A stretch of 64,000 nucleotides of DNA from Candidatus Omnitrophota bacterium (GCA_018062515.1 JAGOSC010000001.1:40765-104764), one strand, 5' to 3'; positions 47,401-64,000 are shown, counted from the first letter of the stretch. The notes: generated by a model not told the origin, from the letters alone. Program-made: numbers and translations.

Positions 47401-50334
47401 CTCGTCATGGGATGTTGAAGGTGATTCAGACTCATTGCTGATTTTCCCGTCTTTTCCGTTTTCCATTACCCTTGATGTCGGACTTCTTTTAGAAATTTCA
47501 TCTCTAAGGGCGAAAATTCTTGACTCCAGAGTTAATAGGCTGTCATTCAGCTCTCCTTCATTCAGTTCTCGACCATTTAGCTTAGATTCTAAATTTAAAA
47601 TCACTTCATTTCTTTCTGCTATCGACTCCGATAGTATCTTTTCAAATTCTTTTGTAAGCTCTTCTTTTAATAGCGTCTTATCTTCTTCTCTAAATCTCCC
47701 TTTATATTGTTCTTTATATTTTCTTATAATCTCATTACTCATATTTTTGTATTGGCGCAGATATATTAATGCCCGAACATAATATAATAAGATTTTCTGT
47801 TCTTCCTTAATATGCCAAAGCCTGGAGACATTGATCATTTTTTTATTTTCCGCCTTATCGTTCCAATCCTTAGCGGGATCAATCAAATCTTCAACTTCCT
47901 TGAGTTTAATCAGGCTTATTTGGTCTAATGGCCAATAAGATAACGGATCCCATTCGATTTTCCGTTTTTCAACACTAAATCCCGTTGATGGCCAATAATT
48001 TAATAATCCCATCTCGAATAACATCGATTTAAAAATATCCGAAACTCTTGTTTGTATTTTAGCTAAAGTCTCGTTTAACTCAGTAATTTCTCCCTTGGAC
48101 GTTTCGTCATTGATTTTCTTATAAACTAATTCATTGAATTTAAAAATTTCTGGTAATTTTAATTCATGTCTTAAAAACTTCGCGCGCATTTCGATATACT
48201 CTTCATCGTGATTTTCCCCGATCATCGCAACATCAACAAACTCTTTGTTACCAGTGTATTCAAAAGAATCGACATTTTCTGCCACCGTAATATCACCTAG
48301 ATTGTCGTAAATAGCACGTCTGAGGTCATCCCATGTCCGCAATGACAACCGGCCTTTTCGCAACAATTCTCTTTCTTCTTTTGGCGTCAGTGTTGACCAA
48401 TCTGTTCCTGACTTTTGTTCCACCTCATATTCATTCTCTATATTAAGGAATAGTTCAAATTTCGTATCAGAGTTTGTATACCCATTAAAACCCTTAAGAC
48501 GAAGCCATTGCTGCGGATCGACACTGGCAATCTTATTCAACCAGTATTCTAATGGTTGCCGACCAAGCTTTTTCCATATGTCCTCTATTTCATCACTTTT
48601 TTTCAAGTCCCAACGAATGATCGATGTTTTGGAGAGTTCTTCTTCAAGTTTGTATTCCTCTTTCAATATTTCCCTTAATTTGGCGACCTGCTGATCATTT
48701 AAACTCATTAACGGCGCCTTCATATTGATTAAAGCATATCTTATGGCTTCTTCTACTCGGGAACGTAATTTCTGTTTCCATAAGGCGTCTTCAATCGACC
48801 GCGACGGTTGTAATAAAAGGTCAACCTCTTCAAGAAGCTTGAGCTGATGAGCCCCTATGGAATTTGATTTAACATAATCAATAACGTGTTCGATTTTAAA
48901 ATCTTTTCGGATAGGATCAAATTTTTTACGGAAAATAGAGGGCTGATTAGACCGAACTGCCTTTGTCACAAGCTTATGAAGTCTCACTACTTTTTTATCG
49001 TATTTATTTTCCCTTCTTGACGCCAACGCATCCTTAAAATTTTTGACTTCCTCTCGCTTTAACTCAGCCATCTTATTGAGTATCGAAAGTTTTTCTGTAT
49101 CTTTAGCGGCGACAGCATCATTAATTATTTTTTCATTGGTGAAATTAGCCTCAAAAAGCTTTACGTCCAATGCAACCATGGAATTATCTTCGGCAATCTT
49201 CATTGCTTCATCAATAATATCTTTTTTGGCATACTTTAAATCTTCATATGTTTCCGATAAGACAGCTTTATCAATATTCTGAAATCCTGCCCCGCCGGAG
49301 AAATATTGTCTTGGAATAACCTTCTGCACGGAAGGATCATATTCTTCTTTAATATAGTTATAGACTCCCAGCTTAAATGCCTTTAAATACTGCTCATAAA
49401 TCTTATCTTTTATTGCAGGATCATCCACATTTACGCCGGCTACTTTCTTTTGATCCACATACACTTGGCCTAAGAGTGATTCTTTCAAATTATTCTTAAA
49501 CCAAGCTGCTAAAATCATGGAATTAAACATTTGTCTTAAACTCGCGAATGTTTCTCCTTCATTCACTTCCTTTTCAATCTCAGGTATAAGAATCTCTTTG
49601 ATCAATTGAGAAATCATTTCATTCTTGTCATTGTCTTCAGCAACTTTTTGATCCGGTCGTAAAGCCATATAATCTTGAGCTAACATCACCTTCAAATGAC
49701 TCTTTAACACAAACGCGCTGCCATTATGCTCATACACCGCCGCTCTTTCTGGAACAATCCATATCTTATTAAATGTTTCAACGGGTATCTCCGTTGTCCC
49801 AAAACGTTCAAAAGCTTTTTCATGTACTCGTGTCCAAAATTTTTGACCCAATTCATCCTCAGGATACATCAATGAGGACGTTAACTGTTTTAGTACATAG
49901 TCCTGGGCTAATAAATCTCGTCCCATTTCAGTAACTCCAAATTCCTGAGGAATCATCTTGTCTTTTTCATAAGGTGACAAGTTAACCCATAGATCTTTGG
50001 ATGGAGTGGTCAAAGTGGCTAAAAAGTACTTAATTAACTTGCTGGATTCTTCTTGAAGCTGATCATCACTGATATTTTCATCCCCTTTACTCACATAAAA
50101 GGTAAAATTAAGAGGATTTTCAGGGTTGATCGTGATACCTCTAATTAAAGCCGGCGTAAACCCTGATGTTTGAGCAACTAATGAACCGGGTATGGGAAGA
50201 TTAAGAATGGTAGGAAGGCTTTGAGCCGCCACTTGCGGGGGTAAAATCGAGGTGAAAACAAACGAAAACGCCACAAAACTACAGATAATTTTGCGGCCGA
50301 TGATTCTTTTTTCTTTATTTTTTGCCAACTTCAT
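38425..50334 (-). CDS. Giant-family secreted protein P3 (3969 aa): signal peptide, family N-terminal domain, very long charged alpha-helical repeat region including a tandem super-repeat of about 870 aa, family C-terminal domain.
   Basis: 11.9-kb uninterrupted ORF; N-terminal LNLPIPGS...WVNLSPYEKDKMIP...HLKVMLAQDY; C-terminal GGIDLNPELLDLQIKRDG...PVIINLTPVTNMPFLLG; no enzymatic motif recognised. Confidence 0.9.
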   Translation of the reverse strand: MKLAKNKEKRIIGRKIICSFVAFSFVFTSILPPQVAAQSLPTILNLPIPGSLVAQTSGFTPALIRGITINPENPLNFTFYVSKGDENISDDQLQEESSKLIKYFLATLTTPSKDLWVNLSPYEKDKMIPQEFGVTEMGRDLLAQDYVLKQLTSSLMYPEDELGQKFWTRVHEKAFERFGTTEIPVETFNKIWIVPERAAVYEHNGSAFVLKSHLKVMLAQDYMALRPDQKVAEDNDKNEMISQLIKEILIPEIEKEVNEGETFASLRQMFNSMILAAWFKNNLKESLLGQVYVDQKKVAGVNVDDPAIKDKIYEQYLKAFKLGVYNYIKEEYDPSVQKVIPRQYFSGGAGFQNIDKAVLSETYEDLKYAKKDIIDEAMKIAEDNSMVALDVKLFEANFTNEKIINDAVAAKDTEKLSILNKMAELKREEVKNFKDALASRRENKYDKKVVRLHKLVTKAVRSNQPSIFRKKFDPIRKDFKIEHVIDYVKSNSIGAHQLKLLEEVDLLLQPSRSIEDALWKQKLRSRVEEAIRYALINMKAPLMSLNDQQVAKLREILKEEYKLEEELSKTSIIRWDLKKSDEIEDIWKKLGRQPLEYWLNKIASVDPQQWLRLKGFNGYTNSDTKFELFLNIENEYEVEQKSGTDWSTLTPKEERELLRKGRLSLRTWDDLRRAIYDNLGDITVAENVDSFEYTGNKEFVDVAMIGENHDEEYIEMRAKFLRHELKLPEIFKFNELVYKKINDETSKGEITELNETLAKIQTRVSDIFKSMLFEMGLLNYWPSTGFSVEKRKIEWDPLSYWPLDQISLIKLKEVEDLIDPAKDWNDKAENKKMINVSRLWHIKEEQKILLYYVRALIYLRQYKNMSNEIIRKYKEQYKGRFREEDKTLLKEELTKEFEKILSESIAERNEVILNLESKLNGRELNEGELNDSLLTLESRIFALRDEISKRSPTSRVMENGKDGKISNESESPSTSHDEAMTADEKQNQAGSDQATMSALTKRDEEKIKGKIKAREEKAKSSKPINFSWSGKIHENFRNDHLRILWSLPSQRTRVIFQNKFMKEEAVVEDKVRQVFRKETFKKVDKNDPDVQNYLKFSNTTSDAKNWEVEKIYISHKLYQELINKKIPMYFRVLFDENNDTHHKDNPKITVFIPQKSSSVDQSMLSQEEEARIAATAKRFSESTKRLLNKPIAESNPLELKELEKIVKIELKNRYWMVHKPEEQTDVLKEYLEEHYLWSRDRWVAKLSEIQMKLKADAAMIAAERDVDTSLDKSQAQVTDLKYLMATPLNDKTREELRSIKEKAENTLREQLFMHFIAPGNEEAPSFVQADIFLDILDLQWFINHINSLLNSADYSTNRKVISEVIVNEKTSERILLQILNRIPLNYTEDKPEQFFPLLRIRDLLTKEVQTAGHEYSDDPRFGHFKSPHFYVFTDKWSSLIDDKLKPRHSDELQLSDLLHLSFDDAANKLSQLTPKMLVELKYLLEPHVFNETTHKKITFPWDKDELEKLLILTKAYVGVKKLTGLDDIEQVKRYISQFWGKWNLDSDRDDWQKGISRKESNSISLKSKREREAMISILEGILEKLKMQDKTTVASKPVEHSKVIGGEYSGQYRRKTSASKVDESNKDFAQLADLKDLMTRPLNDKSRLELRIIKENAEAALENELKVNFSQSSSIPRVGQLESFLYILDLERLIGHVNFFLNTPDYSDNNTILSDVSINEVKGIKLFNKLLRRFPEASDENSEQFIQLTQIRNLLTQKVRLSIQVKNDFIEKGQYKFTGEWLSRIDEKLKLPHAEEELKKNSPVNVNEESNSEKDFAQLAELESLIKKLKDLNAGLNSQWINSQIAELERMMESEYVASSAILESNPSAINKIEPVKQPVEMPNLRNIDLPDDLAYFLNARLNRSGNEKSLSNEDFNEAKNILETGKDALDYWYIGDDNQRIKRFITLMYYHRAINRIEAHKELLTLDSTELKDLDVKMNKIIELWARNGKNVDVGSANMLRKPLLGIKRLMVIEPLQAENSDIDSAWNISRMKELIDVANRQNSTEPEIISRELISDEDNDALFRQTIAVMQKPQLEDLEKLVKKALDSQPSLNGQAVSYIRPTQKWLKILDEKIADQAMISKAKFENLLKKPIRHLLGTEINQLEEYEYKTGDWVNTSKEKRSELRSNNRRPPDEWYALGFVLNSPNEILLFDDGEGLLEFHPDYPTPHAQSSDIIFKSLINKLSPIELDGLKYVMQLGQNANDGDYIEAKRIIEQTKDFKNIIISGVDSLETLALQIHHGTKKEQDDNWFRALSSYNPEAWEIVLKRIEAQIRLVEMGSEAALQRLAEIFSLGGFGFEISTNQPFIYVLEGAIKYGIANLENKDVFTSDHFLTWMETSDIATDFEEKGNESKPEQKKEKKSKRELGSYTATEWVIITDILGPLNVKNTEEDKTFRTLLDQFSVEQLIEMRDIYKPAIMGITYDQELEYESYFDGLDAELKDNFTNLLQAGIDSLKNDQFINSSGSYEDSDFIKLKIVFQRIEAQIWLLQNGTLKGVKFLTRIIRENIFPMMDQPFIYILAASLSKEFEEYIQYIPKSKMEKSLNELSDGLSNLNSEQLREKRTETENDFIQEYITKEQLNMIDERINARLSAFEKSLNDLLFLYLKYIDQDLIESLKDSDPWSVSGFIENTLIILEKLSEQNYIEHPIKYVFQYIAEVALEKELHKEINQEQRIKIQELLFYVKNLNHQISGEQLSEAFKAAMDEFLVMIEKHLENNPKMANKEHLKWIHSHPFLLLIEYAMKNESQKVNDGNWSKLSELLANHQSGEGNTEDLMDTLLQQPLEIFSHQLTDLDHDELIELSDIIERNLENALENHKEWSMVEDQELKKLLRLKGRELVKNQEFEKMKRESKQIEEESPEEWFQRTKGNRAPEEWQILLDRVTAQLWVLVQIERKTETLEKLRSRVFNKFQDALYGYSMRSPEEVEAVLFMLRFALEKDNHDEDQAMMVTKAYIKDLLSKPVKTLTSIEIKTLQMYESETNDWVNASEEKKMALRKQGRRPPLEWYAINVVLTAPHIIYRYKENKSGEMVPIYLTERGEKSDEEFKKLLNELNVEELDMLIKIMELGNTNDEPTLEYALMGMFSQFTSEEQTNYRNAIVTGIDSLEVEKSQGYETWRNNPKNLLRVLRVNKPVEWNIVLRRFKAQKRLLELKKLGVLQLLIETSRAGIMIEPHQPLLYVLEAAIMHDEHDLENEEIFSEKDMIKLNEPSAEPNNPASVRKQPTAVETGKYSLEEWMTVTKILGSQNENTQEDQIFQNMLAQLTRTELTKINDVLENGLRNDKGKFSNYQEYIKKLDSEVQKDLVTVVSAGLNSLTGSEDINVSGSLQGIAIVLSRIQAQIWVHTHGESSAVKLLTKLSQEGIEYQYEPFSYVLELPLSRYLEKENRPLLELEALKSDLSGLTSLQLEQKRKSAESEDLIKRINARLIVVNHSADQILTLLLSKIDEDFKIFFTSSPNWSSSGFVEFSLAIVEKISKMPDKELMLKQEIQYLLELVIESVLEENELPDHKTLNAFNEKQKAELNKILDYLDAQSTPVDQQKLAKFLKDIFSDLDSKLNHLIEENPAIQDEKLIEWISQQPLKSFVVSILNARIQETKIKEESGEKFIGPSSERWTKILSSVKEKIDHAMISDFQDENEWEDLINFDVDPEEQPLINVEIERMLKMTLAKITHELLSLNARELAQLKNLKAEDWTVLSPHDRKLLAHRIDAQIWVHALQIKGNGVLDLEKLKKLKKKIRGELLKVENSNDHPEKIQYRWDEWLAKKYMLRLAETALEKKGIKLAPRKNSRGSNREKIFTEKEFQREQKNWKNKLYLNGWSGGDMKVNGVPVSNTKNPETPGGIDLNPELLDLQIKRDGNGIPLPMLQQPADLLKNIEGFIPVIINLTPVTNMPFLLGLVDQEGNPTEYSFQYKHLSDDPKRLHSRINS
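38700..43895 (-). repeat. Tandem duplication of a super-repeat of about 2.6 kb (about 870 aa) inside P3. Copy A runs about 43895 down to 41290, copy B about 41285 down to 38700; roughly 30-40% amino-acid identity.
   Basis: Collinear matches: YEYKTGDWVNTSKEKRSELRSNNRRPPDEWYALGFVL vs YESETNDWVNASEEKKMALRKQGRRPPLEWYAINVVL; YTATEWVIITDILGP vs YSLEEWMTVTKILGS; FQRIEAQIWLLQNG vs LSRIQAQIWVHTHG; DPWSVSGFIENTLIILEKLS vs PNWSSSGFVEFSLAIVEKIS. Confidence 0.7.
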
Positions 50335-52908: not shown

Positions 52909-52948
52909 CTAACCATCAAATACATTACGTAGGTTTATACCGGATACT

Positions 52949-53311
52949 TTAGCCAGTCTTTTCCGGAGGATTACTTTTGATGAGAGACGTATAAAATTCG
53001 AGGAATCGTTCATAATCAGGTCCTTCACCTTCCAAAATCTGGACGCCAACCATGAAACGGCCGCTATCCCCCACCGCCTTGCACCAGGCGGATTTAACTT
53101 TTATCGTCGCGAGTGTGTCATCACCGAGATCCACGCATAAAAGGATGTCTTTACCGGCCTTAATCGGTTCATGGGTAAAAAAACCAAAACCACCGGAAGA
53201 TACATTCACGATGGTGGCCTCTTGAGTGTATGGCAAATCTTCCGGGATTCCAAACGAAGCGGCCATTTCTATCGGAGAGCGTTGATTAATACGTTTGTTG
53301 TCCATATTCAC
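52949..53311 (-). CDS. PilZ-domain (c-di-GMP-binding) protein.
   Basis: 120 aa; RINQR (RxxxR) and NVSSGG (D/N-x-S-x-G-G) PilZ motifs; 4-bp overlap with hemN. Confidence 0.65.
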   Translation of the reverse strand: MNMDNKRINQRSPIEMAASFGIPEDLPYTQEATIVNVSSGGFGFFTHEPIKAGKDILLCVDLGDDTLATIKVKSAWCKAVGDSGRFMVGVQILEGEGPDYERFLEFYTSLIKSNPPEKTG

Positions 53312-54684
53312 ACCGTCCTTGAAAATCGAGCGTTTAGTTTCTGTTTATTTAGATAAACATCAAAGCCCATACAGATATTGCGGATAAAAATTTTTCCTAA
53401 ATCACTTACATTTATAACATGTTTATCGGCTTCAAGCAAACCATCTTCTATACAATTTTGAATATGCGCCTGTTCTTCGAAAAAATAACCATCAAATAAT
53501 TCGTCAAACCGTTGAGAAAATTCATCCTTATCCAGCCTAAAATGGCACATCAAAGAATTGATGGTAAACTGCCGTATTTTATCGTCCCTGGTCAAACATT
53601 TCCCCCGCTCGACGGGAAGCCGGTTCTGATCTAAAGCGCCATAATAATCTTTAAGAATCTTGTGATTTTGAATAAACGCGTCTTCAATAAATCCTATCGA
53701 CGAGACTCCGACGCCAATATACTCATCGGCCGGCTTGACGGTATAACCCATAAAATTTCTGTATAACCGATTGTTTCGATACGCCTTCGCCAATTCATCC
53801 TCTTTTAAAGCGAAATGATCCATAGCGATAGCCTGATAACCAGCCTCTAAAAGTTGCCGGCGCGCCTGAAGAAAGATATCGATTTTTTCACTGCTCGTCG
53901 GTAATGAAGCTTGATCTATTTTTTTTTGATGTTTTTTCAGCCATGGGACATAAGCAAAACTATATAAAGCAATTCGGTCTGGGCGTAAAGCAATAACTTT
54001 ATCGACGGTGTCATAAAAACTTTTCGTTGTTTGAAAAGGCAATCCATAAATCAGATCAAAATTAATCGACGGAAAACCAAGTAAACGGCAATAATCATAG
54101 AATTCTTTGACTAGTTCGTAGGGTTGAATACGGTTCACCGCTTCTTGAACAGCGACGTCAAAATCCTGAACGCCCATGGAAATACGGTTAAAACCCAAAT
54201 CCTTTAAACTTTTAACTTTTGAGCGGTCAATTGTCCGCGGGTCGATTTCAATGGCGATTTCTCCAGTATAATCAATTTCAAAATGTTCACTCACCTTTTG
54301 AAAAAGTCTTCGGATCTGGTCTTCATTCAAAAATGTCGGAGTTCCTCCCCCCCAATGAAATTGGCGGATATTCTTCCGACGGCCGATATATTGGGAAAGC
54401 AGATCAATTTCTTTAAAAAGATATGTGAGATATTCTTCACCATATTTGTCGTCGTGTTTGCGTAAAATAACGCTACACGCGCAATAGGTGCACATGGTCT
54501 GACAAAAGGGAATATGGATGTATAAGGATAAAGTTTTATCTGATTGGCCGAATGTTTTTAACTTCTCTTGATAAATTGATGAATTAATTTCCTCTGACCA
54601 AACGGGCGCGGTGGGATAACTTGTATAGCGTGGACCAGCGATATCAAATTTCTCAATTGTATGTTTATCAATCTGAAGGGACAT
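53308..54684 (-). CDS. hemN: Oxygen-independent coproporphyrinogen III oxidase (radical SAM, HemN-type).
   Basis: 458 aa; CQTMCTYCAC (CxxxCxxC) radical-SAM cluster motif; full-length HemN architecture. Confidence 0.85.
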   Translation of the reverse strand: MSLQIDKHTIEKFDIAGPRYTSYPTAPVWSEEINSSIYQEKLKTFGQSDKTLSLYIHIPFCQTMCTYCACSVILRKHDDKYGEEYLTYLFKEIDLLSQYIGRRKNIRQFHWGGGTPTFLNEDQIRRLFQKVSEHFEIDYTGEIAIEIDPRTIDRSKVKSLKDLGFNRISMGVQDFDVAVQEAVNRIQPYELVKEFYDYCRLLGFPSINFDLIYGLPFQTTKSFYDTVDKVIALRPDRIALYSFAYVPWLKKHQKKIDQASLPTSSEKIDIFLQARRQLLEAGYQAIAMDHFALKEDELAKAYRNNRLYRNFMGYTVKPADEYIGVGVSSIGFIEDAFIQNHKILKDYYGALDQNRLPVERGKCLTRDDKIRQFTINSLMCHFRLDKDEFSQRFDELFDGYFFEEQAHIQNCIEDGLLEADKHVINVSDLGKIFIRNICMGFDVYLNKQKLNARFSRTV

Positions 54685-54756
54685 AGAGTTACAATAGCAG
54701 AGTTACGGTATATTTCAAGCTCAAATCTGAACCGGATGAGCTGACTTTATACCGCT

Positions 54757-57700
54757 TTATCTTACGCTGCTCAACATCTCTTCTTCGTTCACTGTCGCAC
54801 CCAAAAGAAGCGGTAAATTGGTGATTGGCGTTATGTTAATGATAATGGGCGATAAACCTTCGCCGATGTGGATATTTTGTAGATTTTGATTAACATTCGG
54901 CGCGTTAAAACTTTGACCTTTTCCTTGAATTTCGAGATCTAGTAAGCCGGGATTAAAATCAATACCACCGACTTCTTTTCCCAATATGCTTTTATCGGAA
55001 TTTTGCATCTCGCTCGCGCCACTCACGTATTTACCAAAAGGAACCTTCGCTTGGTCTGACGGATCTTTGGTCGGGTCTTGGCCAGGTATCGCGTTTGTTT
55101 TCATCTCTTTTCCAATCTTTGCAATTAAATCTTTGGCCTTGTCTTGTAGTCCATCCGCTTCAAAACGATTAAGCACATTTTTTAAAACAGCGTCAGGTTG
55201 AACGAGGGATTCTAACATTGATTTAAGCAAAGTCTCTTCGGATGATAATGTTTGTTCTTCAGCTGTCTGTTTAGATCTTTCTTCTTCAACTAACTTTTTA
55301 TATTGATCTGGCAAGTTACTCATCGTTACTTTTTGATTGACATCGTGACCATATTTGATCGTCAGATTATCCCGATTTTTGTGACGGACCAGAGAACGGT
55401 AAACTCTCTCCATATTATTTTTGATAGTGGCTTCGTCTCTGTAGTTAGGAGCAAAATCATATGAATGAATCTCAATCTTTTTTAAACTTGATACTGTTTC
55501 CAATTGTTCTAAATATGATAAAGAAGGTATGTTTATCTCCTCTAAATTTTCAGGAAAATCTATATTTTCCATATTTAAATTGCGATTATCCGCATCGCGC
55601 AATACTAATTCTTTTAAAAACTTAAAATTTTTCAAATAACTTAAAATCCTTTCTCGAGCGGCATCGTCCATCTTCTCAACAGATAATTTAATATTACTTA
55701 TATTCTCTAAATGACTAGGCCAGGAAAGTATTTTAATTATTGCCTCTGGTTCCAAACCAAAAATACTTAATCCGCTAATTTCTCCTTTTCTATTAAATCT
55801 TAATGTTTCTTTAAGCATCTCCCTCTCAATAGACAGATCTTTGACGGCCGCATCCAATGTCTTTTCACTGTTTAAGGTCATCATATGCCCTTGCGACGTA
55901 AGGATAGCCAAATTATCCCGATTCTTATGATGATTTAAGAAATCTATCAAAAGATCATCCTTAAAACCTGTGGCATACACACTTAAATATTCCAAGTTTT
56001 CCAGGTATTGTAGATTCTTTAATCCGGCTATAGTTATATTTTCTTTGTAAAGGATTAACTCTTTCAGGCTCTTTATTTTTGTTAAATATTTGAAATCGAC
56101 ATCATTATTTTCGTTTGTGGAATATTGTAATTTTTTCAAATTCTTCAGTTTTGGTAAATGCTTAGCTCTATTTTTCATTTCAACATTGTAAAGATATAAT
56201 TCTTCCAAATCATCGCTTAATTGTTCCAACCCAACAAATATTTTATCCATAATTTTTTCGTCGAGAGAACTGTTATCTAAATCTAAAACGAATTTTCCGT
56301 CACTGTTGAGTGTCAATCGTTCTTTACCTAAATTCTTATTAAGACCAAGATTTTCTAAATATTTACGGGCTATGGCCAAACGTTTATCCAAAGCAGCGGA
56401 TGTTTCTTTCGGGTCAGCGATTTTATATTCCGAAGGTACGTCGTCAAGAAATAAAGTTTTACCCGAAGAAGACACAACAGAGAAAATTTTTGGTTCTGGA
56501 GAATTATATTGCATAATAAGTTTAAAAATAGCGTCATCGCTCACCGCAGTATCTTTAAAATTTAAACTTTGTAATATAGGCAGCCCTAATAAATGTTTTT
56601 CTAATCCCACATCAGTCACTTTTGTTCCTTCAAGATCAAGGCTTGACAATCCTAACCCTTTTAAATGCACTAAGCCGTTATCGCTTATATTCGTTCCGTC
56701 TAGGATTAAAATTATTAAATTGGGTAACTCTCTAATCTGGACTAATCCCGCATCGGTCACCTTCGTTTGTCTAAGATTTAATATGCCTAACTTATGCAAA
56801 CTCTTTATATGTGCTAATCCATCATTGGTGACGTTCGTTCCCTTTAAATCCAAACGTACCAAATTGGGCAAATCTTTAATGTACCCTAATCCTGAGTCGC
56901 TCACCATTGTATCGTTAAGCATTAATTCTTTTAAATTCGACATCCCTTTTAAATTCATTAACCCGCTATTGGTCACAGCCATTCCACTAAGATTTAACAT
57001 GTTTAGGTTCGTCAAACGGCTGATATCAGAAAGGATATTGTCAATATCAATAATATCGGCATCTATACTTAATCCGCTTAAATCCAACTTCATAAATTTT
57101 TCCTCACCTAATAAATCAACTCGTTCTTTTATTTCGTTAAGTTTGACAACACCCAAATCTCCTAAAATTTTAATGGCCAAATTCACCTGGTCGTCCAGGC
57201 TGAGCCCCTCTTTCTGTTCCGCGATTTTGTGCTCAGGTAGATCCTTAACTGTAAGTTTAGTATTTGAATCGGTAAGAATTTCCAGATTTTTCTGATTAGC
57301 ATGCTGTTCAATAAATTTCAAAAACGCATCCTTAGATATTCCAGCTTCAAGAAACAATAATTTTAGATTTTTTAAACTTAGTAAATTTGATAGTCCAGCC
57401 TCCGTAATTTTTGTTCCATCAAGATAAAGACTTTCTAAATTTAATTTACTCAAACTTGGCAGCCCGGCATCCGTGACTTTAGTGTTTGTAAGATCCAAAT
57501 GTTTTAAAAATGTTAATTCTTTTAAATATTCTAACCCGTCGTCACTTATATTCGTATCTTTAAGTTCCAAATGTATTAATTTTGTCAAACCTTTTACATG
57601 TTGTAACCCCGCATTACTTATACTTGATCCACTGAGATTTAAAAATTTCAAATCCGTTAAACGGCTGATTTCGGAAAGCTTATTGTCCATTTGATCATTT

Positions 57701-60700
57701 TTGAGACCTGACAAATCCAAACTTATCCATTTCTGTTGAGCGTCATTTCGTATATTTATTCGCCCCTTCATTTCTTCGAGATCTTTTACCCCAAAATCAT
57801 TCAATATTTTTTTGGCTATTTCTTCTTGTTCGTCCAGGCTGAGGGTTTCTTTCTGCCCCGCGGTTTTATATTCCTCAGGCACGTCAGTTATTGTGATTGT
57901 TTCAGTCGGGGAATATATGATTCCTAAATTATCCCGATTTGGATGCTGCACAATAAATTCATAAATAGCTTTATCGGTTAACTGTGTATCGTCACCGACA
58001 TTTACATCTTCCTCTAAATGTGTGTCTGTTCGAAAATGAAGATCCAGGGTTTCCAATTTTTTCAGTGAAATCAGGTATTTTAATCCCGAATCTTGAATGC
58101 GATTGTTCGAAAAAGTCAGTTTCTTTAAATTCGTTAGCTGACCAACCCTGAAAAGAATATTGTCTTCTATTTTATGTTTGCTTCTAAGGTCTAACTCCAA
58201 TTCTCCCTGATCATTGACGTGTAATCGATCCATTGAAATATTTAATTCAAGCAATACTTTTCGAGCTTCAATTATCTGCTCATCCAGAGTGAGGGGCTTT
58301 TTCTGCTCAGCGGTTTTATATTCCTCAGGCACGTCATTTATGGTAATAAGCTTCCCAGAACTTGATATAACAGCCAGATTGTCTCCATTTTCATGTTGGC
58401 TGATAAAATTTTTAATGGCATCATCACTTACTTTCGTAGCTACAAATATCGCAGATCCCAAATTCGGCAATTTATTTAAATACGGCAATGCGGCATCAGT
58501 AACGTTCGTATCAGTCAAATTAATAAACTTCAGATTCAGTAAATCTAAATACTTTACCGATGTATCATCCACTTGGGTATAGTCAAGATATAATGCCTCT
58601 AAAGTCGTCAGAAGACGAATATTGAAAAGCCAAGTATTGATATTACTGTTTGTTAAATTTGATAAAATCACTCCAATAACTTCTTCCTTATCATTTTTTA
58701 TGATTCGATCTTTGATAGCGTCATCCGCAACGTCCAATCCTTTTAATAATTGACGGGCCATGTCCTCAACGGTGAGAGGTTTTTCCTGCTCCGCGGTTTT
58801 GTATTCATCCGGCACGTCATCTATGGTCAAATACGGGCCGCCCGCTCCAACCTCCAATTTTTGATTCGGATGTTGTACTATAAATTTATATATTTCTTCA
58901 TTACTTATATCTGATCTAGAAAAATATAAATTCTCTAAATATAGCAGACCGTTAAAATACTTTAACTTCGAGCTGGTTATGGTTACGCCTCCAAGAAATA
59001 GCCATGTGAGGTCTTTATCTTTTAATCCAGCAAGAACTTGGTCAATATTATTATCATTCAAATCATCTATGTGTGCCTTCAATTTTCCGCCTTCAACCAA
59101 TACAATGGGTTCTTTGATTCCTAAATTTCTTAACAATTCTTTGATCTGTGTCACTTGATCCTTCAAACTAGAAGGTTTTTTCTGCTCCTCGGTTTTGTAT
59201 TCATCCGGCACGTCGCTTATTCCAATCGTCTTACCAGAGGCTGAGATGACTTTCAGGTTATTTCGATTCATATGTTGTCCTAAAAATTTTTTAATATCGT
59301 CTTCACTTACATTCGTTCCAGATAAATCTACATAACGCAAATTTGGTAATTCAAGCAAAGGCGTAAGTCCAGAATAACTCACCTTTGTTCCCCTCAAAAA
59401 CATTGTTTCTAAATTTTTATTATTTAAATATGATAATTCTGAATCACCCACATCTGTGTTAGTAATATCCAATCTTGTCAATTTTTTCAATCCGTTAATT
59501 TGCTCTAAGTCATTCCCCTTTAATTTTAATTTAGTCCCTTGTAAAGTTAAATCTTCCAAAGTATCTAGCCGCGCCACGTCATAAAGTATTTTTGAGAAAT
59601 CTTTATTATCAGCAAATAAACTGAGGGACAATCTAAATAATTCACCTTGAGAGTTGACGCCTATGCGCAAATCACGCCGACCTTTTTCTAAAACTCCTAC
59701 ATCCTTTAATATTTTATGGGCCAGATCTATTTTTTCCTCCACGGAAAGTTCTTTTTTCTGTTCTGTGGTTTTGTATTTATCCGGCACGTCTGTTATGCCA
59801 ATGGTATGGTGCCTTCTTATAAACTTTCCTGACTTAACACTTATCTCATGCGCTAACGTAACTCTTATATTATCCCGATTCTTATGCTGCACAATAAATT
59901 TATAAACAGCTTCATTGCTAACTTGTGTCTCATGAAGATTTATCTCTTCCAAGTTTTCTAAATCTTTAAGAAGGAGGAGGTGTTCATCCGTCAAATTTGC
60001 TATCGAATTAAGAAGCAGATATTTTAAATTTGTCAAACGGTTAACGTCCGAAAGCACCTGACTAATATCATTACTCACCAGGTCAGATAAATTAAATCCT
60101 TCCAACTCTCCAGAGTCGTTCTTCAGTATTCGAGCTTCAACTTTCAAAAAACTCGAGCTAAAAGCCATATTTTTTAATAGTTTTGTGACTAAATCAAGCT
60201 GTTCTTCAGAGCTGAGAACTTCCTTCTGTCCCGCGGTTTTATATTTCTCAGGCACGTCACTAATTTTGTAAACAGTTCCGTTGTCATTTTTTCCCCACCC
60301 GTCCCCATAATATAATTTAACGGATAGATTATTCTGATTTTGATGCTGTCCGATAAATCTTTTAATAGCATCTTCGCTTACTACCTTTTTATAAAACGTT
60401 ACTTCTTTCAAATTCGGCAGTGCCAATAAATATGGCAGTTCGGCATCGGTGAATGCCGGTCCATTAAAGGTCAATTTTATCAAATTCGGAAGACGATTGA
60501 AATTCAGAAATATAGACTTGAGACCTTCAATGTCAAAATTTGATAAATTTAACGTGAATCCTACCCGATCGTATCTTTTTGATATTCGTTCCTCAATGCC
60601 AATCGCTGACTCCCCCTGCTTTTTTAAAATTTCCTGAGTCAGTTTCACCTGTTCATCCAAGCTGAGTTCTTCTTTCTGTTCCGCGGCTTTATATTCATCA

Positions 60701-63700
60701 GGCACGTCTTTTATTGTAATTTCTTTTCCGAATGCATGAACTGTTAAATTATCTCTATTTTTATGCTGCCATATAAATTTCTTTATGGCATCCTCAGTTA
60801 CTTTGGTTCCATTAAGATATAAGTTTTTTAAATTTGACATTAAGATTAAATACTCTAACTGTTTATCGGTTGTATCCGTATCATGCATGTCTAATGTTTC
60901 TAATTCAGTTAAATGCTTTATATCGTGAAAAATTGCCTGTTTCGTTGGCTCTAACAATGCTACACTTAATTCAGTTACTCCATAGTCATTAGTATCCATA
61001 AACAGATTACTTTTTGTAATGCCTAGCTTTTTTAATATTTTAATTGCCAAGTCAATTTGTTCTTGCCTGCTGAGTTTTTCATTCTTTTCCGTTGATTCAT
61101 CTCCAACATTTTCCTTTAATATGACTGAACGCATGACGCCATAGGTATAAACCTCTTCCACTTTGCGCTGAATGTCCTGTAAACTTACCAGTTCAAATGT
61201 ATCGCGCTGAAGGCGGCTGGAAACGTCTTTCTTTATCGCTTCATTCTCGACGGAGGTAGACCGTTGTATGGCTTTTTTAAGGTCGGCGAGTGTAGTGATT
61301 TCGTCAACATAACTGACCGCGTCTGTATATACAGTGAATTTAAATCCTTGTGCAAATAAAAATGCCAAAGCCTCGTCGAGAATCGGATTCCATTTGATTT
61401 CGTTCAAGTTCTCACCCGTTAAAATAATTGTCTTTTTAGAAGTTAAAGGAACACCGCTGCTACTCACATGTGCTTCGGAAGGATTTAGAAAATAGGCTTC
61501 TAGGTCAAATACACCATTCATCCCAAAATCATCACCAGGTGTTTTTTTAATTTGAATAAAGGCGTCCAAAGCCTGATTCAGTTCACTCTGGAACGTTTCA
61601 CTGACTTGAGCCATACGTGGTTGTCGAGGAGTATCTTCTGTTGTACTTCGGGTTAATTTGATTTGCTTGACCGATGGTGGTGTTACGGGCTTAGGATCAT
61701 ATTTTGAGGCTCGATGACTATCTGTATGGACACCCGCCCCATGTCGCCGGCCAATCATTCCTCCCATATCTATTCCTTCTCCAAAGCCATCTCCAAATTG
61801 TTGTCCGAACCCATGTCCTTTTACATCATTCCAAAATTTATCCAGCTTATTTAAAAAACTGTTTGATTTTCCTTTCTGATTCAATGATTCATTCGCCGCC
61901 TGCATTCTTTTTTGTGAAACCTTTCTAATATGACTCTTCAGTCGATTAACTTGACCTATAAGCGTTGACTCCAGATTAGATTTTTGAATTTGATGAATGG
62001 CATCAACAATGTTTCCTTGATAAGACGGATTTTCCAATAATGAAAGCATTTCTTCAAGACGTTCATCTAAAAGACGATATTCATACATTAAGTCCTTAGA
62101 AATTTCGTCTAAAATCCGTTTGATTTTTTGTTCAGTAGGTCGTGTGTTCCGTTTAAGACGATCAGCCAAAGCTTGTTTTTTCTTATTCAACTCAGCTTCA
62201 GTTAATGGCTGATTATTTTGAACAACATGGCTTTCTTCCTCTACATTTTCAACCTCACCCAAATTCCGGATAGCCTCAGCACTGTGGGCGCGTTCTTCCT
62301 CTTTCTCTTCTTCAGAAAGAATTTCTTCCGGTTGTTCTTCCACTGGAATAGATAAATAGTCATTTTCCATTGAGGAAAATAAAATATCCCCGCGAAACTG
62401 CTGATACAAACGTTCTTCTTCATCATTTACCCGCGCGTAAGAAAGCCCTAATTCCCGAGCAGCATCCAAATGTTTTAACGCTAAACGGACCGGATTTATA
62501 GCAAAGACATCATCTAATACACCGGCAAATTGTTCCAGACTCTCGCGTCGATTATTTTTTGCGTGTTCTGGGGTCAACAGAGTATTTGCATAAGTCCATA
62601 ACGTATATTGATACATTGTCCGCATAGTTAAAGGATCATTGCCGTCAATCATCCATTCATCAAATGTTTCAATATCCACGTCGGCTGCCATTTGAGCAAA
62701 ACGTTTTAAACCGTCTGACGGTATACCAAGTACGGAATACTCAAACTCATAACGATGCCCGGCCTCATGACGCAAATCTTCCATATCTTGCTGAAAATCA
62801 CTTCTGAGTACTGAGCGCGTCCGACGGGCATGACTGGTTTCATGGAACATGACATTCTCCCAATAACCATTGATAAATCCCCGCGACCGTTGGACAATTG
62901 CTTTTTGATCTTCCTTCCAATAACCACCACCGTCGTTTGCATCGGCACTGTCCTCCCACACATCAACCTCTCCGTAAAGATCTCCGACCAGATACCAAGC
63001 TATTTTTTTCATCATATTAATTTGCTGGATTTTCAAATCCTTGGCATCTTCCTGGTAATTGATTAATTCCTCGCGAGACGGAAGCTTTTGATTTTTCAAG
63101 AATTTTTGTAAATACAGCTGATAAACAAACTCTTCAGCTATTTTTTCAGGAGATTCACTTGGTAAACCCAAGCGCATATGTAACATACGGAGAAACTCCC
63201 GAGGCGTAGGCTGATGTTCTTTATTTTCAATGTGATTCTGCAGCCATAAATGAATATTCACCATGACCTTAATATCTTCCGTTGATACTTCCTTACCAAC
63301 CATATATGAATCAATAAACTGAACCGCAATTTGCGTTAATTCTTTTTGATTATAACTCCTTAAACGTTTATAAATAACCCGGTTCTGCAAGGCGCTGGAA
63401 AGCTTTTCTCGTCCATGAAAATCCACGGAATTAATGGTGGCAAACAGCGCAAAACCCGGAGCGGCGTTACCAGTCAACACATCATTGAGCCGCCCTTCCA
63501 AAAATCCGCTCGGTAAACGGTTCATTTCACTAATAACAACAATTGATCCTTCTCGTTGCGCCTTCTTGATGAGAGCCACCATTGCATCCGTATCAAAAGA
63601 CGCCGTAATGCGGTAAAAAGTTGTTTCAGGATTTGTTGCAGTTTGCTCTACCGATCCTTCTTTAAATCCATTTTCAGTGAGTGTTTTAACAACACTCACG

Positions 63701-64000
63701 TCCTTACCTTGTCCAGATGGGCCCTCAATAATCATCCCGCGTTTGCCTTGTAATGTCTGCGGATTTTTAACCCGCTCTTGACGCATATTTAAAAAATCTT
63801 GAATATCCGCCGTTAATTCCGCTGTAGAGTCGTTGAAAAAGAATTTATCTTTTTTAAAACGTTCGCCAAATTTTTTTTGAATGTCTGCTATCCGTTGTTG
63901 ATCAAGATCGTTCACTAAAACACCATACTTTTCTCGAATCAAATACGTAAATGCTTTTTTCTCCTCTTCAGAAAAATTTCCTTTATAAATAATCCAAGCG
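54757..64000 (-). CDS. Giant-family protein P4 (more than 3080 aa, 5' end beyond the window): degenerate AAA_5 (MoxR/midasin-like) ATPase module, tandem HExxH motifs, nine leucine-rich-repeat cassettes, family C-terminal domain.
   Basis: The frame stays open from 63942 to 64000 (AWIIYKGNFSEEEKKAFTY-L-IREKYG...), so the track's 'M' is a TTG inside the ORF. GPSGQGKD / IVVISEMNRL / FALFATINSVDF..LSSALQNRV follow the AAA_5 motif order. HETSH at 62830-62844 and HEAGH at 62755-62769. LRRs of the LxxLxLxxTxVTDAGL type. C-terminus GGIDFNPGLLDLEIQGKG...PIIINITPITNLPLLLG. Confidence 0.9.
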   Translation of the reverse strand, partial: AWIIYKGNFSEEEKKAFTYLIREKYGVLVNDLDQQRIADIQKKFGERFKKDKFFFNDSTAELTADIQDFLNMRQERVKNPQTLQGKRGMIIEGPSGQGKDVSVVKTLTENGFKEGSVEQTATNPETTFYRITASFDTDAMVALIKKAQREGSIVVISEMNRLPSGFLEGRLNDVLTGNAAPGFALFATINSVDFHGREKLSSALQNRVIYKRLRSYNQKELTQIAVQFIDSYMVGKEVSTEDIKVMVNIHLWLQNHIENKEHQPTPREFLRMLHMRLGLPSESPEKIAEEFVYQLYLQKFLKNQKLPSREELINYQEDAKDLKIQQINMMKKIAWYLVGDLYGEVDVWEDSADANDGGGYWKEDQKAIVQRSRGFINGYWENVMFHETSHARRTRSVLRSDFQQDMEDLRHEAGHRYEFEYSVLGIPSDGLKRFAQMAADVDIETFDEWMIDGNDPLTMRTMYQYTLWTYANTLLTPEHAKNNRRESLEQFAGVLDDVFAINPVRLALKHLDAARELGLSYARVNDEEERLYQQFRGDILFSSMENDYLSIPVEEQPEEILSEEEKEEERAHSAEAIRNLGEVENVEEESHVVQNNQPLTEAELNKKKQALADRLKRNTRPTEQKIKRILDEISKDLMYEYRLLDERLEEMLSLLENPSYQGNIVDAIHQIQKSNLESTLIGQVNRLKSHIRKVSQKRMQAANESLNQKGKSNSFLNKLDKFWNDVKGHGFGQQFGDGFGEGIDMGGMIGRRHGAGVHTDSHRASKYDPKPVTPPSVKQIKLTRSTTEDTPRQPRMAQVSETFQSELNQALDAFIQIKKTPGDDFGMNGVFDLEAYFLNPSEAHVSSSGVPLTSKKTIILTGENLNEIKWNPILDEALAFLFAQGFKFTVYTDAVSYVDEITTLADLKKAIQRSTSVENEAIKKDVSSRLQRDTFELVSLQDIQRKVEEVYTYGVMRSVILKENVGDESTEKNEKLSRQEQIDLAIKILKKLGITKSNLFMDTNDYGVTELSVALLEPTKQAIFHDIKHLTELETLDMHDTDTTDKQLEYLILMSNLKNLYLNGTKVTEDAIKKFIWQHKNRDNLTVHAFGKEITIKDVPDEYKAAEQKEELSLDEQVKLTQEILKKQGESAIGIEERISKRYDRVGFTLNLSNFDIEGLKSIFLNFNRLPNLIKLTFNGPAFTDAELPYLLALPNLKEVTFYKKVVSEDAIKRFIGQHQNQNNLSVKLYYGDGWGKNDNGTVYKISDVPEKYKTAGQKEVLSSEEQLDLVTKLLKNMAFSSSFLKVEARILKNDSGELEGFNLSDLVSNDISQVLSDVNRLTNLKYLLLNSIANLTDEHLLLLKDLENLEEINLHETQVSNEAVYKFIVQHKNRDNIRVTLAHEISVKSGKFIRRHHTIGITDVPDKYKTTEQKKELSVEEKIDLAHKILKDVGVLEKGRRDLRIGVNSQGELFRLSLSLFADNKDFSKILYDVARLDTLEDLTLQGTKLKLKGNDLEQINGLKKLTRLDITNTDVGDSELSYLNNKNLETMFLRGTKVSYSGLTPLLELPNLRYVDLSGTNVSEDDIKKFLGQHMNRNNLKVISASGKTIGISDVPDEYKTEEQKKPSSLKDQVTQIKELLRNLGIKEPIVLVEGGKLKAHIDDLNDNNIDQVLAGLKDKDLTWLFLGGVTITSSKLKYFNGLLYLENLYFSRSDISNEEIYKFIVQHPNQKLEVGAGGPYLTIDDVPDEYKTAEQEKPLTVEDMARQLLKGLDVADDAIKDRIIKNDKEEVIGVILSNLTNSNINTWLFNIRLLTTLEALYLDYTQVDDTSVKYLDLLNLKFINLTDTNVTDAALPYLNKLPNLGSAIFVATKVSDDAIKNFISQHENGDNLAVISSSGKLITINDVPEEYKTAEQKKPLTLDEQIIEARKVLLELNISMDRLHVNDQGELELDLRSKHKIEDNILFRVGQLTNLKKLTFSNNRIQDSGLKYLISLKKLETLDLHFRTDTHLEEDVNVGDDTQLTDKAIYEFIVQHPNRDNLGIIYSPTETITITDVPEEYKTAGQKETLSLDEQEEIAKKILNDFGVKDLEEMKGRINIRNDAQQKWISLDLSGLKNDQMDNKLSEISRLTDLKFLNLSGSSISNAGLQHVKGLTKLIHLELKDTNISDDGLEYLKELTFLKHLDLTNTKVTDAGLPSLSKLNLESLYLDGTKITEAGLSNLLSLKNLKLLFLEAGISKDAFLKFIEQHANQKNLEILTDSNTKLTVKDLPEHKIAEQKEGLSLDDQVNLAIKILGDLGVVKLNEIKERVDLLGEEKFMKLDLSGLSIDADIIDIDNILSDISRLTNLNMLNLSGMAVTNSGLMNLKGMSNLKELMLNDTMVSDSGLGYIKDLPNLVRLDLKGTNVTNDGLAHIKSLHKLGILNLRQTKVTDAGLVQIRELPNLIILILDGTNISDNGLVHLKGLGLSSLDLEGTKVTDVGLEKHLLGLPILQSLNFKDTAVSDDAIFKLIMQYNSPEPKIFSVVSSSGKTLFLDDVPSEYKIADPKETSAALDKRLAIARKYLENLGLNKNLGKERLTLNSDGKFVLDLDNSSLDEKIMDKIFVGLEQLSDDLEELYLYNVEMKNRAKHLPKLKNLKKLQYSTNENNDVDFKYLTKIKSLKELILYKENITIAGLKNLQYLENLEYLSVYATGFKDDLLIDFLNHHKNRDNLAILTSQGHMMTLNSEKTLDAAVKDLSIEREMLKETLRFNRKGEISGLSIFGLEPEAIIKILSWPSHLENISNIKLSVEKMDDAARERILSYLKNFKFLKELVLRDADNRNLNMENIDFPENLEEINIPSLSYLEQLETVSSLKKIEIHSYDFAPNYRDEATIKNNMERVYRSLVRHKNRDNLTIKYGHDVNQKVTMSNLPDQYKKLVEEERSKQTAEEQTLSSEETLLKSMLESLVQPDAVLKNVLNRFEADGLQDKAKDLIAKIGKEMKTNAIPGQDPTKDPSDQAKVPFGKYVSGASEMQNSDKSILGKEVGGIDFNPGLLDLEIQGKGQSFNAPNVNQNLQNIHIGEGLSPIIINITPITNLPLLLGATVNEEEMLSSVR
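56400..60760 (-). repeat. Nine tandem coding cassettes in P4 (each about 130-200 aa): LRR block, FIxQHxNRDNL, then DVPDEYKTAEQK-xLSLDEQ linker. The linkers are near-identical at DNA level.
   Basis: A core of about 33 nt (ctgctccgcggttttgtattcatccggcacgtc and variants) recurs at about 56440, 57225, 57870, 58321, 58790, 59180, 59760, 60225 and 60675, each encoding DVP(D/E)EYKTAEQK on the minus strand. Confidence 0.85.

What the first reader, a model, noticed from the sequence alone, without database searches (positions are those of the whole stretch)
56400..60760. Near-identical linkers of about 33 nt punctuate the nine LRR cassettes: a recombination-prone coding repeat array
Each cassette ends with FIxQHxNRDNL and a DVPDEYKTAEQK-xLSLDEQ linker, and the linker DNA (ctgctccgcggttttgtattcatccggcacgtc) is nearly invariant while the LRR bodies diverge. 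This pattern, conserved junctions with variable bodies, is typical of cassette shuffling, expansion or contraction by homologous recombination, as in phase- or antigen-variable surface proteins. It is also a hot spot for assembly collapse.
Basis: seen in the sequence. Interest (0 to 1): 0.55.

Follow-up and report, generated by a model that had tools for sequence, protein, structure and literature searches.

The report
Conserved junctions between diverged LRR domains
The region is a string of eleven old, strongly diverged leucine-rich-repeat domains in a giant protein of an uncultured (probably Omnitrophota) bacterium; the short conserved "linkers" are mainly domain-boundary motifs kept by protein-level selection, with a weak DNA-level trace of past homogenisation and no sign of an active variation switch.

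Summary
The cassettes and junction motifs are real, but "nearly invariant" overstates the DNA. The quoted 33-mer occurs once exactly and once with 1 mismatch; five more linkers differ at 4-6 of 33 positions and two are more degenerate. The array has 11 capped LRR domains (window 55318-61104) in a minus-strand gene that runs off the window (>3080 aa). Bodies are saturated (16-43% aa, 44-56% nt identity). The junction motifs ([DN]-V-P-x-x-Y/F-K and L-S-x-x-E-Q) recur in homologs only 25-45% identical, so amino-acid constraint explains most of the conservation. It does not explain all of it. Linker codons match more often than codon usage predicts (z 6.4, against 1.9 for the equally conserved C-cap), minor G/C-ending codons are fixed, and GC3 is 0.53 against 0.29 in the flanks. 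This fits past short-tract homogenisation. Two distant family members show clear mosaic or recent cassette duplication, and copy number ranges from about 3 to 19. However, the longest exact repeats here are 27 and 25 nt. An independently built assembly is collinear across the array (1 SNP, no indel). No donor cassettes were found, and no recombinase among the neighbours scanned. This is an ordinary tandem-domain scaffold, not a contingency locus or an assembly-collapse hot spot.

The parts
54757..64000 (-). Giant gene, 5'-truncated by the window edge (at least 3080 codons visible). It holds an AAA_5-type ATPase module, an HExxH region, a long middle region, 11 LRR cassettes and a conserved C-terminal tail.
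   Evidence: ORF list. Frame open to base 64000 and aligned to residue ~1257 of homolog P0001. Homologs carry PF07728 AAA_5 and LRR domains. Invariant G-K-R-G...G-x-S-G-x-G-K and H-E-x-x-H columns.
55318..61104 (-). Array of 11 capped LRR cassettes U0-U10 (132-267 aa each). Coordinates: U0 60709-61104, U1 60259-60708, U2 59791-60258, U3 59215-59790, U4 58819-59214, U5 58336-58818, U6 57886-58335, U7 57244-57885, U8 56443-57243, U9 55870-56442, U10 55318-55869.
   Evidence: Motif positions and MAFFT alignment. Pfam LRR_4/LRR_6. AlphaFold model of U6 with mean pLDDT 83.6: N-cap helix, LRR strands, C-cap helix. All Foldseek hits are LRR proteins, all at weak E-values of 0.008 or higher.
60646..60708 (-). 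Junction L1 (U0/U1): DVPDEYKAAEQKEELSLDEQ.
60196..60258 (-). Junction L2 (U1/U2): DVPEKYKTAGQKEVLSSEEQ.
   Evidence: 6 mismatches.
59728..59790 (-). Junction L3 (U2/U3): DVPDKYKTTEQKKELSVEEK.
   Evidence: 4 mismatches.
59152..59214 (-). Junction L4 (U3/U4): DVPDEYKTEEQKKPSSLKDQ. It shares a 25-nt exact match (59190-59214) with L5 (58794-58818), 396 nt away and in frame.
   Evidence: 1 mismatch.
58756..58818 (-). Junction L5 (U4/U5): DVPDEYKTAEQEKPLTVED.
58273..58335 (-). Junction L6 (U5/U6): DVPEEYKTAEQKKPLTLDEQ. It shares a 27-nt exact match (58310-58336) with L7 (57860-57886), 450 nt away and in frame.
   Evidence: 4 mismatches.
57823..57885 (-). Junction L7 (U6/U7): DVPEEYKTAGQKETLSLDEQ.
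   Evidence: 4 mismatches.
57184..57243 (-). Junction L8 (U7/U8): DLP-EHKIAEQKEGLSLDDQ, a degenerate copy with a one-codon deletion.
56380..56442 (-). Junction L9 (U8/U9): DVPSEYKIADPKETSAALDKR, a degenerate copy.
   Evidence: 10 mismatches.
55255..55317 (-). Terminal junction after U10: NLPDQYKKLVEEERSKQTAEEQ. It aligns with the terminal EVPDEYKKKVSQEKSKQ of the closest relative, L008.
54760..54969 (-). Conserved C-terminal tail (GGIDFNP..LDLEIQG...NIHIGEGLSPIIINITPITNLPLLLG). The other three giant ORFs of the window end with the same tail.
   Evidence: No Pfam family. At least 196 database proteins carry it; of the few that have a source name, most are Omnitrophica/Omnitrophota and one is labelled Bathyarchaeia.

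Best explanation
The region encodes a beads-on-a-string array of 11 independently capped leucine-rich-repeat domains. It forms the C-terminal half of a giant AAA_5-ATPase/HExxH protein from an uncultured, probably Omnitrophota, bacterium.

The 'linker' is a domain junction with four elements. These are the last beta-strand of one domain (x-I-T-I-x), a moderately ordered D-V-P-x-E-Y-K element (predicted), a charged spacer of about 8 residues (T-A-E-Q-K-x-x), and the start of the next domain's N-cap helix (L-S-x-x-E-Q). Protein-level purifying selection keeps DVPxEYK and LSxxEQ, because the same motifs mark cassette junctions across the whole family.

Inferred history: the array grew in this lineage by tandem duplication long ago, and the bodies have since diverged to saturation. 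The linker cores kept about half the synonymous divergence of their neighbours and carry fixed minor G/C-ending codons. The most economical explanation is occasional short-tract homogenisation between junctions (gene conversion or unequal exchange, possibly GC-biased) acting on top of the amino-acid constraint.

Today the shared DNA tracts are too short and too imperfect for the array to behave as a high-frequency variation locus. Cassette gain or loss would be a rare evolutionary event, not a programmed switch.
For: Anatomy (shown). define the cassettes. The U6 model has pLDDT above 90 in most of the LRR core (one insertion loop, residues 116-125, falls below 50) and 65-79 in the junction blocks. 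Foldseek hits are all LRR proteins.

Protein-level constraint (shown). The motif x[VIL]Pxx[YF][KR] followed by LSxxEQ occurs at cassette junctions in P0002, P0006, P0007, P0009, P0013, L008 and P0166, at 25-55% identity and 38-58% GC.

Old duplication (shown). Body identity is 16-43% aa and 38-56% nt. Mean pS is about 0.7 in the flanks. TRF finds no array. The closest relative, L008, has only 3 cassettes with heterogeneous junctions.

Excess DNA similarity in the linkers (shown). Same-codon pairs are 163 against 101.5 +/- 9.6 (z 6.4, 0 of 20000); the C-cap control gives z 1.9. Linker-core pS is 0.39. GC3 is 0.53 against 0.27-0.29 in the flanks. The fixed codons GAC, GTG, ACC, CAG and CTC are minor codons in every gene set of the window, including the ATP-synthase-like ORFs. 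GACGTG makes up 4 of 70 DV dipeptides outside the array. P0166 uses varied codons at the same motif, so no family-wide nucleotide motif exists.

Family precedent for intragenic exchange (shown). The P0017 gene is mosaic: 88 nt at 97% across two junctions, and u1/u3 at about 90% for 80 codons and then 30-50%. The P0166 gene has 235-300-nt blocks at 77-88% identity.

Low present-day potential (shown). Exact matches are at most 27 nt. The Logan contig L001 is collinear over 52932-62603 with 1 SNP and no indel.
Against: The homogenisation step is inferred, not shown. In the 63-nt junction block, 32 of 55 informative site pairs show all four gametes, but homoplasy at saturated sites would give the same result. 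Linker similarity is not clearly greater between neighbours (adjacent mean about 78%, non-adjacent about 74%). The signal rests on about 5-6 codons in 7 copies. Tracts of 25-27 nt flanked by diverged DNA are poor substrates for RecA-type conversion (my own knowledge of minimal homology requirements). Population sampling is thin: one further assembly spans the array and one covers only its end. Protein localisation and the role of DVPxEYK are untested.
Confidence: 0.6

Rival explanations
1. One reading: the array is a contingency locus. Near-identical linkers act as frequent crossover points, so cassettes are deleted, duplicated or shuffled within populations, as in phase- or antigen-variable surface proteins.
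For: Junctions are conserved and bodies are variable. Codon identity is in excess in the linkers. Both exact matches (27 and 25 nt) lie between adjacent linkers with in-frame spacing (450 and 396 nt), so an exchange would remove or add exactly one cassette. Cassette number varies across the family, and two homologs show recent or mosaic duplication.
Against: Only 2 of 21 central linker pairs share more than 16 nt exactly. The core is 78-94% identical over just 36 nt. An independently built assembly spans the array with no indel. No donor cassettes occur in the four other long ORFs searched by motif. No recombinase or RT family appeared in the ORFs that were scanned. The bodies are saturated, so no duplication here is recent. 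Surface exposure is unknown.
Confidence: 0.08
2. The synonymous conservation reflects selection on the mRNA or on translation, not recombination. For example, a cluster of minor codons at each domain boundary could slow the ribosome so that each LRR domain of this very long protein folds co-translationally.
For: All the fixed synonymous choices are minor codons in this genome. They cluster in the 15-20 codons immediately after each domain. The effect is absent from the equally conserved C-cap.
Against: No conserved RNA structure was found (consensus energy -0.3 kcal/mol, no covariation). The same motif in P0166 uses varied and mostly common codons: GAT, with GTC, GTT and GTG. C-ending two-fold codons are not expected to be slow (my own knowledge). 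Two synonymous sites (CCG/CCT and TAC/TAT) are in complete linkage across the copies (U3-U5 against the rest), which looks like shared descent rather than site-wise selection.
Confidence: 0.2
3. The junction is a functional peptide signal, either a protease processing site or a docking motif. On this reading the array is a polyprotein, or a multivalent scaffold whose DVPxEYK elements bind a partner. It is a protein-level reading and is compatible with the main explanation.
For: The motif is conserved across very distant homologs. Confidence is lower and the chain partly extended around it in the model. The spacer is charged.
Against: No protease or partner has been identified. The motif directly follows the last strand and has intermediate pLDDT in the model (block means 74-90; block-level figures only), which is more typical of a cap element than of a free linear motif. 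Nothing here tests cleavage.
Confidence: 0.07

Closest known systems
Tandem-repeat scaffold class of very long Omnitrophota proteins (bioRxiv 10.64898/2026.06.07.730766; giant genes in bioRxiv 10.1101/2023.11.21.568195)
   Same: This is a long protein from the same kind of organism, with one domain type repeated many times. That preprint reports that nucleotide tandems have mostly dissolved while the domain architecture persists. The same is seen here: TRF finds no array and the bodies are saturated.
   Different: LRR is not among the repeat types that paper lists (TSP3, NHL, WD, HEAT, TPR) in the passages I read. This protein combines AAA_5, HExxH and LRR cassettes and is shorter (more than 3080 aa visible). 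The junction-specific excess codon identity is not described there.
Multi-domain LRR proteins with separately capped LRR modules joined by short linkers (e.g. animal Slit D1-D4; small capped LRR domains such as tropomodulin C-terminal, ANP32 and TAP/NXF1)
   Same: Each cassette is a short LRR solenoid with its own N- and C-terminal caps. The best fold matches are such small LRR domains. The domains are strung together by short connectors.
   Different: There are no cysteine-rich caps, and the protein has no cysteine at all. The cap motifs (LSxxEQ helix; FxxxHPNRxxL + DVPxEYK) match no Pfam family. Foldseek E-values are weak, 0.008 or higher. The comparison with Slit rests on my own knowledge.
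Repeat-mediated variable surface proteins (e.g. streptococcal alpha C/Rib, staphylococcal SasG/Aap, mycoplasma Vlp; cassette systems such as Borrelia vlsE)
   Same: It is a tandem coding repeat array with in-frame unit lengths, and its junctions are conserved relative to the bodies.
   Different: By my own knowledge, those systems rely on long, near-identical DNA repeats (tens to hundreds of nt) or on silent donor cassettes, and they show copy-number heterogeneity. Here exact tracts are at most 27 nt, units share 38-56% nt identity, no donors were found, and two assemblies agree.
Lamprey VLR assembly from LRR cassettes by copy-choice at short homologies
   Same: LRR modules are bounded by short (10-30 nt) shared sequences that could in principle guide template switching.
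   Different: There is no incomplete germline gene flanked by donor cassettes and no deaminase. The gene is already complete and in frame, and the organism is a bacterium. This is an analogy from my own knowledge only.

Membership tests
Leucine-rich repeat proteins | LxxLxLxxN/C-type repeats forming a solenoid, recognised by LRR profile models | tested here: met
   Pfam LRR_4 E = 1.3e-14 and LRR_6 E = 9.6e-8. The model shows alternating strand/helix units. All Foldseek hits are LRR proteins.
Giant AAA_5 + LRR protein family of Omnitrophota-like MAGs | Homology across the AAA_5 module, the HExxH region and the C-terminal region | tested here: met
   Hits at E = 1e-189 to 1e-47 with PF07728. Identity is 31-55% over 560 aa, with invariant Walker-type and HExxH columns. 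The tail is shared.
Phase/antigen-variable repeat loci (contingency loci) | Long near-identical DNA repeats or simple-sequence tracts that recombine or slip at high frequency | tested here: not met
   The longest exact repeats are 27 and 25 nt and all others are 18 nt or shorter. Units share 38-56% nt identity. TRF reports no array.
Phase/antigen-variable repeat loci (contingency loci) | Copy-number or sequence heterogeneity between cells, strains or assemblies | tested here: inconclusive
   One independently built contig spans the array with 1 SNP and no indel. A second covers only 53719-56015 and diverges at a point inside an LRR body, not at a linker. No reads or strains were available, and scans for close relatives found none.
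Cassette-donor gene conversion systems (vlsE/pilE-like) | Silent donor cassettes near an expression site | tested here: not met
   A motif search of the four other long ORFs tested (979, 1203, 2753 and 3969 aa) finds cassette motifs only in this gene. DNA outside the 64-kb window was not examined.
Diversity-generating retroelement targets | Reverse transcriptase plus a template repeat matching a variable repeat | not tested
   No RT family appeared in the 18 window ORFs scanned with Pfam. Not every ORF in the window was scanned, and no TR/VR search was run.
Surface or secreted protein | Signal peptide or sorting signal and extracytoplasmic location | not testable with these tools
   The N-terminus lies outside the window. 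Some homologs start with signal-like segments. The conserved C-terminal tail has unknown function. AAA_5 ATPase modules argue for at least partly cytoplasmic exposure (inference).

The most novel reading that the evidence does not exclude
The junctions are kept alike at the DNA level by ongoing, GC-biased short-tract exchange. That exchange also lets whole LRR cassettes be swapped, lost or gained within natural populations. An episymbiotic or predatory Omnitrophota cell would then have a slowly shuffling panel of binding modules for host or prey recognition, a bacterial analogue of cassette-built LRR receptors.
Probability: 0.07. Interest if true: 0.6.

Novelty: new member of a known kind. Interest (0 to 1): 0.27.

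Why it matters
The result mainly acts as a corrective. A pattern of conserved junctions and variable bodies in a giant repeat protein can look like an antigenic-variation device. Here it is largely a domain-boundary motif under protein-level selection, in an old and stable array that assembles cleanly.

Two modest positives remain. First, the work defines an uncharacterised capped-LRR cassette (LSxxEQ N-cap, FxxxHPNRxxL + DVPxEYK C-cap). It recurs in several giant proteins of Omnitrophota-like bacteria. Copy number ranges from about 3 to 19 and duplication ages differ, so the set is useful material for studying how such arrays grow.

Second, a 40-60-nt island of reduced synonymous divergence and raised GC3 sits at each junction. 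This is a small, testable case for separating gene conversion from codon-level selection in bacteria.

Tried and rejected
(1) Conserved RNA structure at the junctions: RNAalifold on seven junctions gave -0.3 kcal/mol and no covariation. Rfam found nothing in 54000-64000.

(2) Coding or signals on the opposite strand: the three antisense ORFs (329, 122 and 83 aa) have no Pfam match. Promoter- and terminator-like sites are no more frequent than in shuffles.

(3) Close relatives for a copy-number comparison: single-protein scans of genome contigs and metagenome contigs found none. A degenerate DNA pattern for DVP[DE]EYKT hit 52 metagenome contigs once each, and none encodes a relative.

(4) A general codon-context preference for GACGTG: rejected, since it makes up 4 of 70 DV dipeptides outside the array and DVP elsewhere uses GATGTT.

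(5) The linker codons as 'optimal' codons: rejected, because they are minor in the ATP-synthase-like ORFs too.

(6) A neighbour bias in linker similarity: weak only (about 78% against 74%), so not claimed.

(7) The four-gamete test: 32 of 55 site pairs are incompatible, but this cannot separate recombination from homoplasy.

(8) Tandem Repeats Finder: it reports only a 72-nt LRR period of 1.9 copies inside U7 and a 19-nt repeat, not the cassette array.


Full report
**What is there.** The flagged interval lies inside a single minus-strand reading frame that ends at 54757 and is still open at the last base of the window. The gene is therefore cut at its 5' end. The visible 3080 codons align from about residue 1257 of the best homolog onward.

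The visible part starts with an AAA_5-type ATPase module and an invariant HExxH region. A long middle region follows, then the repeat array, then a conserved C-terminal tail.

Homologs are giant proteins (1800-4700 aa) from metagenome-assembled genomes. These are labelled Omnitrophota/Omnitrophica, Elusimicrobiota, FCPU426, KSB1 or 'uncultured Planctomycetales', and they are 26-55% identical in the conserved core. Neighbouring genes are housekeeping: HemN, uroporphyrinogen decarboxylase, an amine-oxidase-type enzyme, cytochrome c assembly, MoeA and ATP-synthase-like ORFs. No recombinase or reverse transcriptase appeared among the ORFs scanned.

**Checking the observation.** The cassettes are real. 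I delimit 11 of them (U0-U10, aa 947-2875, window 55318-61104), 132-267 aa long. Each has four parts:
- an LSxxEQ...ILKxLG helix;
- a short hairpin;
- a variable number of 22-24-residue LRRs;
- a DAIxKFIxQHxNRDNL helix followed by a strand ending in x-I-T-I-x.

A tenth is degenerate, and the U9/U10 junction lacks the motif.

The quoted 33-mer occurs exactly once (58786-58818) and once with one mismatch (59182-59214). Chance expectation is zero. The other seven copies differ at 4, 6, 4, 4, 4, 10 and 18 positions, the last having a one-codon deletion. The 36-nt core is 78-94% identical among the seven central copies, so it is conserved but not 'nearly invariant'.

The bodies are strongly diverged, at 16-43% aa and 38-56% nt identity. 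Tandem Repeats Finder does not detect the array at all.

**What the junction is.** An AlphaFold model of U6 with both junctions (mean pLDDT 83.6) shows a capped LRR solenoid. Confidence is above 90 in most of the core; one insertion loop (residues 116-125) falls below 50, and the junction blocks average 65-79. DVPxEYK directly follows the last strand, and the TAEQKxx spacer is the least confident part. Fold matches are all LRR proteins, notably small capped LRR domains, at weak E-values.

The junction motifs are not peculiar to this gene. Versions of [DN][VIL]Pxx[YF][KR], followed some residues later by LSxxEQ, sit at cassette boundaries in many homologs. These homologs share only 25-55% identity and range from 38 to 58% GC. 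Amino-acid-level selection on a domain-boundary element therefore explains the core of the conservation.

**Is amino-acid constraint the whole story?** No. Among aligned positions with the same amino acid, the seven central junctions use the same codon far more often than gene-wide codon usage predicts. In codons 0-12 there are 163 same-codon pairs against 101.5 +/- 9.6, with 0 of 20000 resamplings reaching the observed value. The similarly conserved C-cap gives z = 1.9, and the nine codons upstream show no excess.

Further measurements agree:
- Nei-Gojobori pS is 0.39 in the junction core, 0.62 in the C-cap and about 0.7 in the flanking blocks.
- The fixed codons (GAC, GTG, ACC, CAG, CTC, and partly AGC and ATA) are minor codons in every gene set of the window, including the ATP-synthase-like ORFs.
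- GACGTG is used for 4 of 70 Asp-Val dipeptides elsewhere in the window.
- GC3 is 0.53 over junction codons 0-19, against 0.27-0.29 beside them and 0.33 gene-wide.
- There is no conserved RNA structure.
- The same motif in another family member uses varied, mostly common codons, so this is not a family-wide nucleotide signal.

The simplest reading is identity by descent that is younger than the bodies. That means occasional short-tract homogenisation between junctions, possibly GC-biased. This step is inferred. The four-gamete pattern (32 of 55 site pairs) cannot separate it from homoplasy. Selection on codons, for instance for pausing between domains, remains a live rival.

**Family context.** Cassette number differs widely in the family. 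The closest relative found (L008; 55% identity in the core, 39% GC) has three cassettes with unlike junctions. A full-library profile search found relatives that match the whole cassette including both junctions, with 3 to 19 matched stretches.

Two members show what a younger array looks like:
- In the P0017 gene, two successive junctions are 97% identical over 88 nt. The adjoining bodies are mosaic: about 90% identity for 80 codons, then 30-50%.
- In the 6362-aa P0166 gene, seven junctions are 74-91% identical over 43 nt, and blocks of 235-300 nt are 77-88% identical.

So these arrays do grow and exchange segments on evolutionary time, and junctions stay the most alike. A 2026 preprint on Omnitrophota long proteins reaches the same general conclusion, that repeat architectures are mostly old with dissolved nucleotide tandems.

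**Is it recombination-prone now?** The evidence says no, or only very weakly.
- The longest exact repeats are 27 nt (L6/L7, 450 nt apart) and 25 nt (L4/L5, 396 nt apart). Every other junction pair shares 8-16 nt in register. By my own knowledge, that is at or below the minimal homology for RecA-dependent exchange, and it is far from the long identical repeats of known variable surface proteins.
- A Logan contig from run SRR11088468 covers window 52932-62603, the entire array. It is 99.99% identical, with one nonsynonymous SNP at 59399 and no indel.
- A short NCBI metagenome contig matches 53719-56015 exactly and then diverges inside an LRR body, not at a junction.
- Cassette motifs occur in none of the four other long ORFs of the window that were searched.
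- With units only 38-56% identical, assembly collapse is not expected.

Sampling of natural variation is thin, so rare variants cannot be excluded.

**Verdict.** The array is an ordinary, old tandem-domain scaffold in a giant protein, and its junction motif is a conserved structural element. A modest DNA-level signal of past homogenisation exists, but nothing indicates a phase- or antigen-variation mechanism. It is a new member of a known kind, and interest is low to moderate.

Noticed in passing
window 20003-28264, 34746-38357, 38425-50334 and 54757-64000 (all minus strand): Four giant ORFs (2753, 1203, 3969 and more than 3080 aa) end with the same ~65-aa C-terminal tail (GGIDxN..LdLeiqG...NIqI.Gf.PVIINItPvtNLPllLG). 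Three of them share an N-terminal signal-like head (LNLPxPG...VWIVPEKAxVYE), which is also found at the N-termini of homologs P0001, P0002 and P0016. The middles differ: M48 peptidase plus ABC1 kinase in the 2753-aa ORF, and AAA_5 + HExxH + LRR in this gene. The tail has no Pfam family and occurs in at least 196 database proteins; most of the few that carry a name are Omnitrophica/Omnitrophota. This looks like a head/tail 'carrier' architecture with variable cargo.
   Followed up: partly
window 54757-63942: The 3061 translated residues contain no cysteine at all.
   Followed up: no
L079 1-95 / window 56015-56016: NCBI metagenome contig JAHZTR010310600.1 (GCA_020054605.1) is identical to window 53719-56015. 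Its first 95 nt match nothing in the window. The breakpoint lies inside the LRR body of cassette U9. It is either a chimeric contig end or a structural variant, and it is not at a linker.
   Followed up: partly
window 59399: This is the only difference between the window and the Logan contig L001 over 9672 nt. It is an A/G change that turns Phe1515 into Ser in an LRR of cassette U3.
   Followed up: no
L017 13106-15470 (homolog P0017): Three ~265-aa cassettes have sharply mosaic DNA identity. Two junctions are 97% identical over 88 nt. Units 1 and 3 share about 90% identity for the first 80 codons and then 30-50%. This is a clear footprint of segmental duplication or conversion in a distant family member.
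   Followed up: yes
L080 1001-20089 (P0166, 6362 aa): A different giant protein carries the same capped-LRR cassette (19 matched stretches). It has two alternating, highly homogeneous junction types (DVPE[EA]YKQQVQPAEPFVPEFIPVQKPLSFDEQV and DVPEAYKQQIQSEKLSFEEQV). Its C-terminal region has PPDK_N and PEP-utilizer domains.
   Followed up: partly
window 62830-62844: An invariant HExxH motif (HETSH here), with a conserved QDLEDLRHE about 15 residues downstream, is shared by all seven sequences aligned here, including the query. This suggests a zinc-metallopeptidase-like module between the ATPase and the LRR array. No Pfam family was assigned.
   Followed up: no
window 57489-57622: TRF reports a 72-nt period (1.9 copies, 75% match) inside cassette U7. 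It corresponds to adjacent 24-residue LRR units, and it is the only place in the array where neighbouring repeats are still recognisably similar at the DNA level.
   Followed up: no
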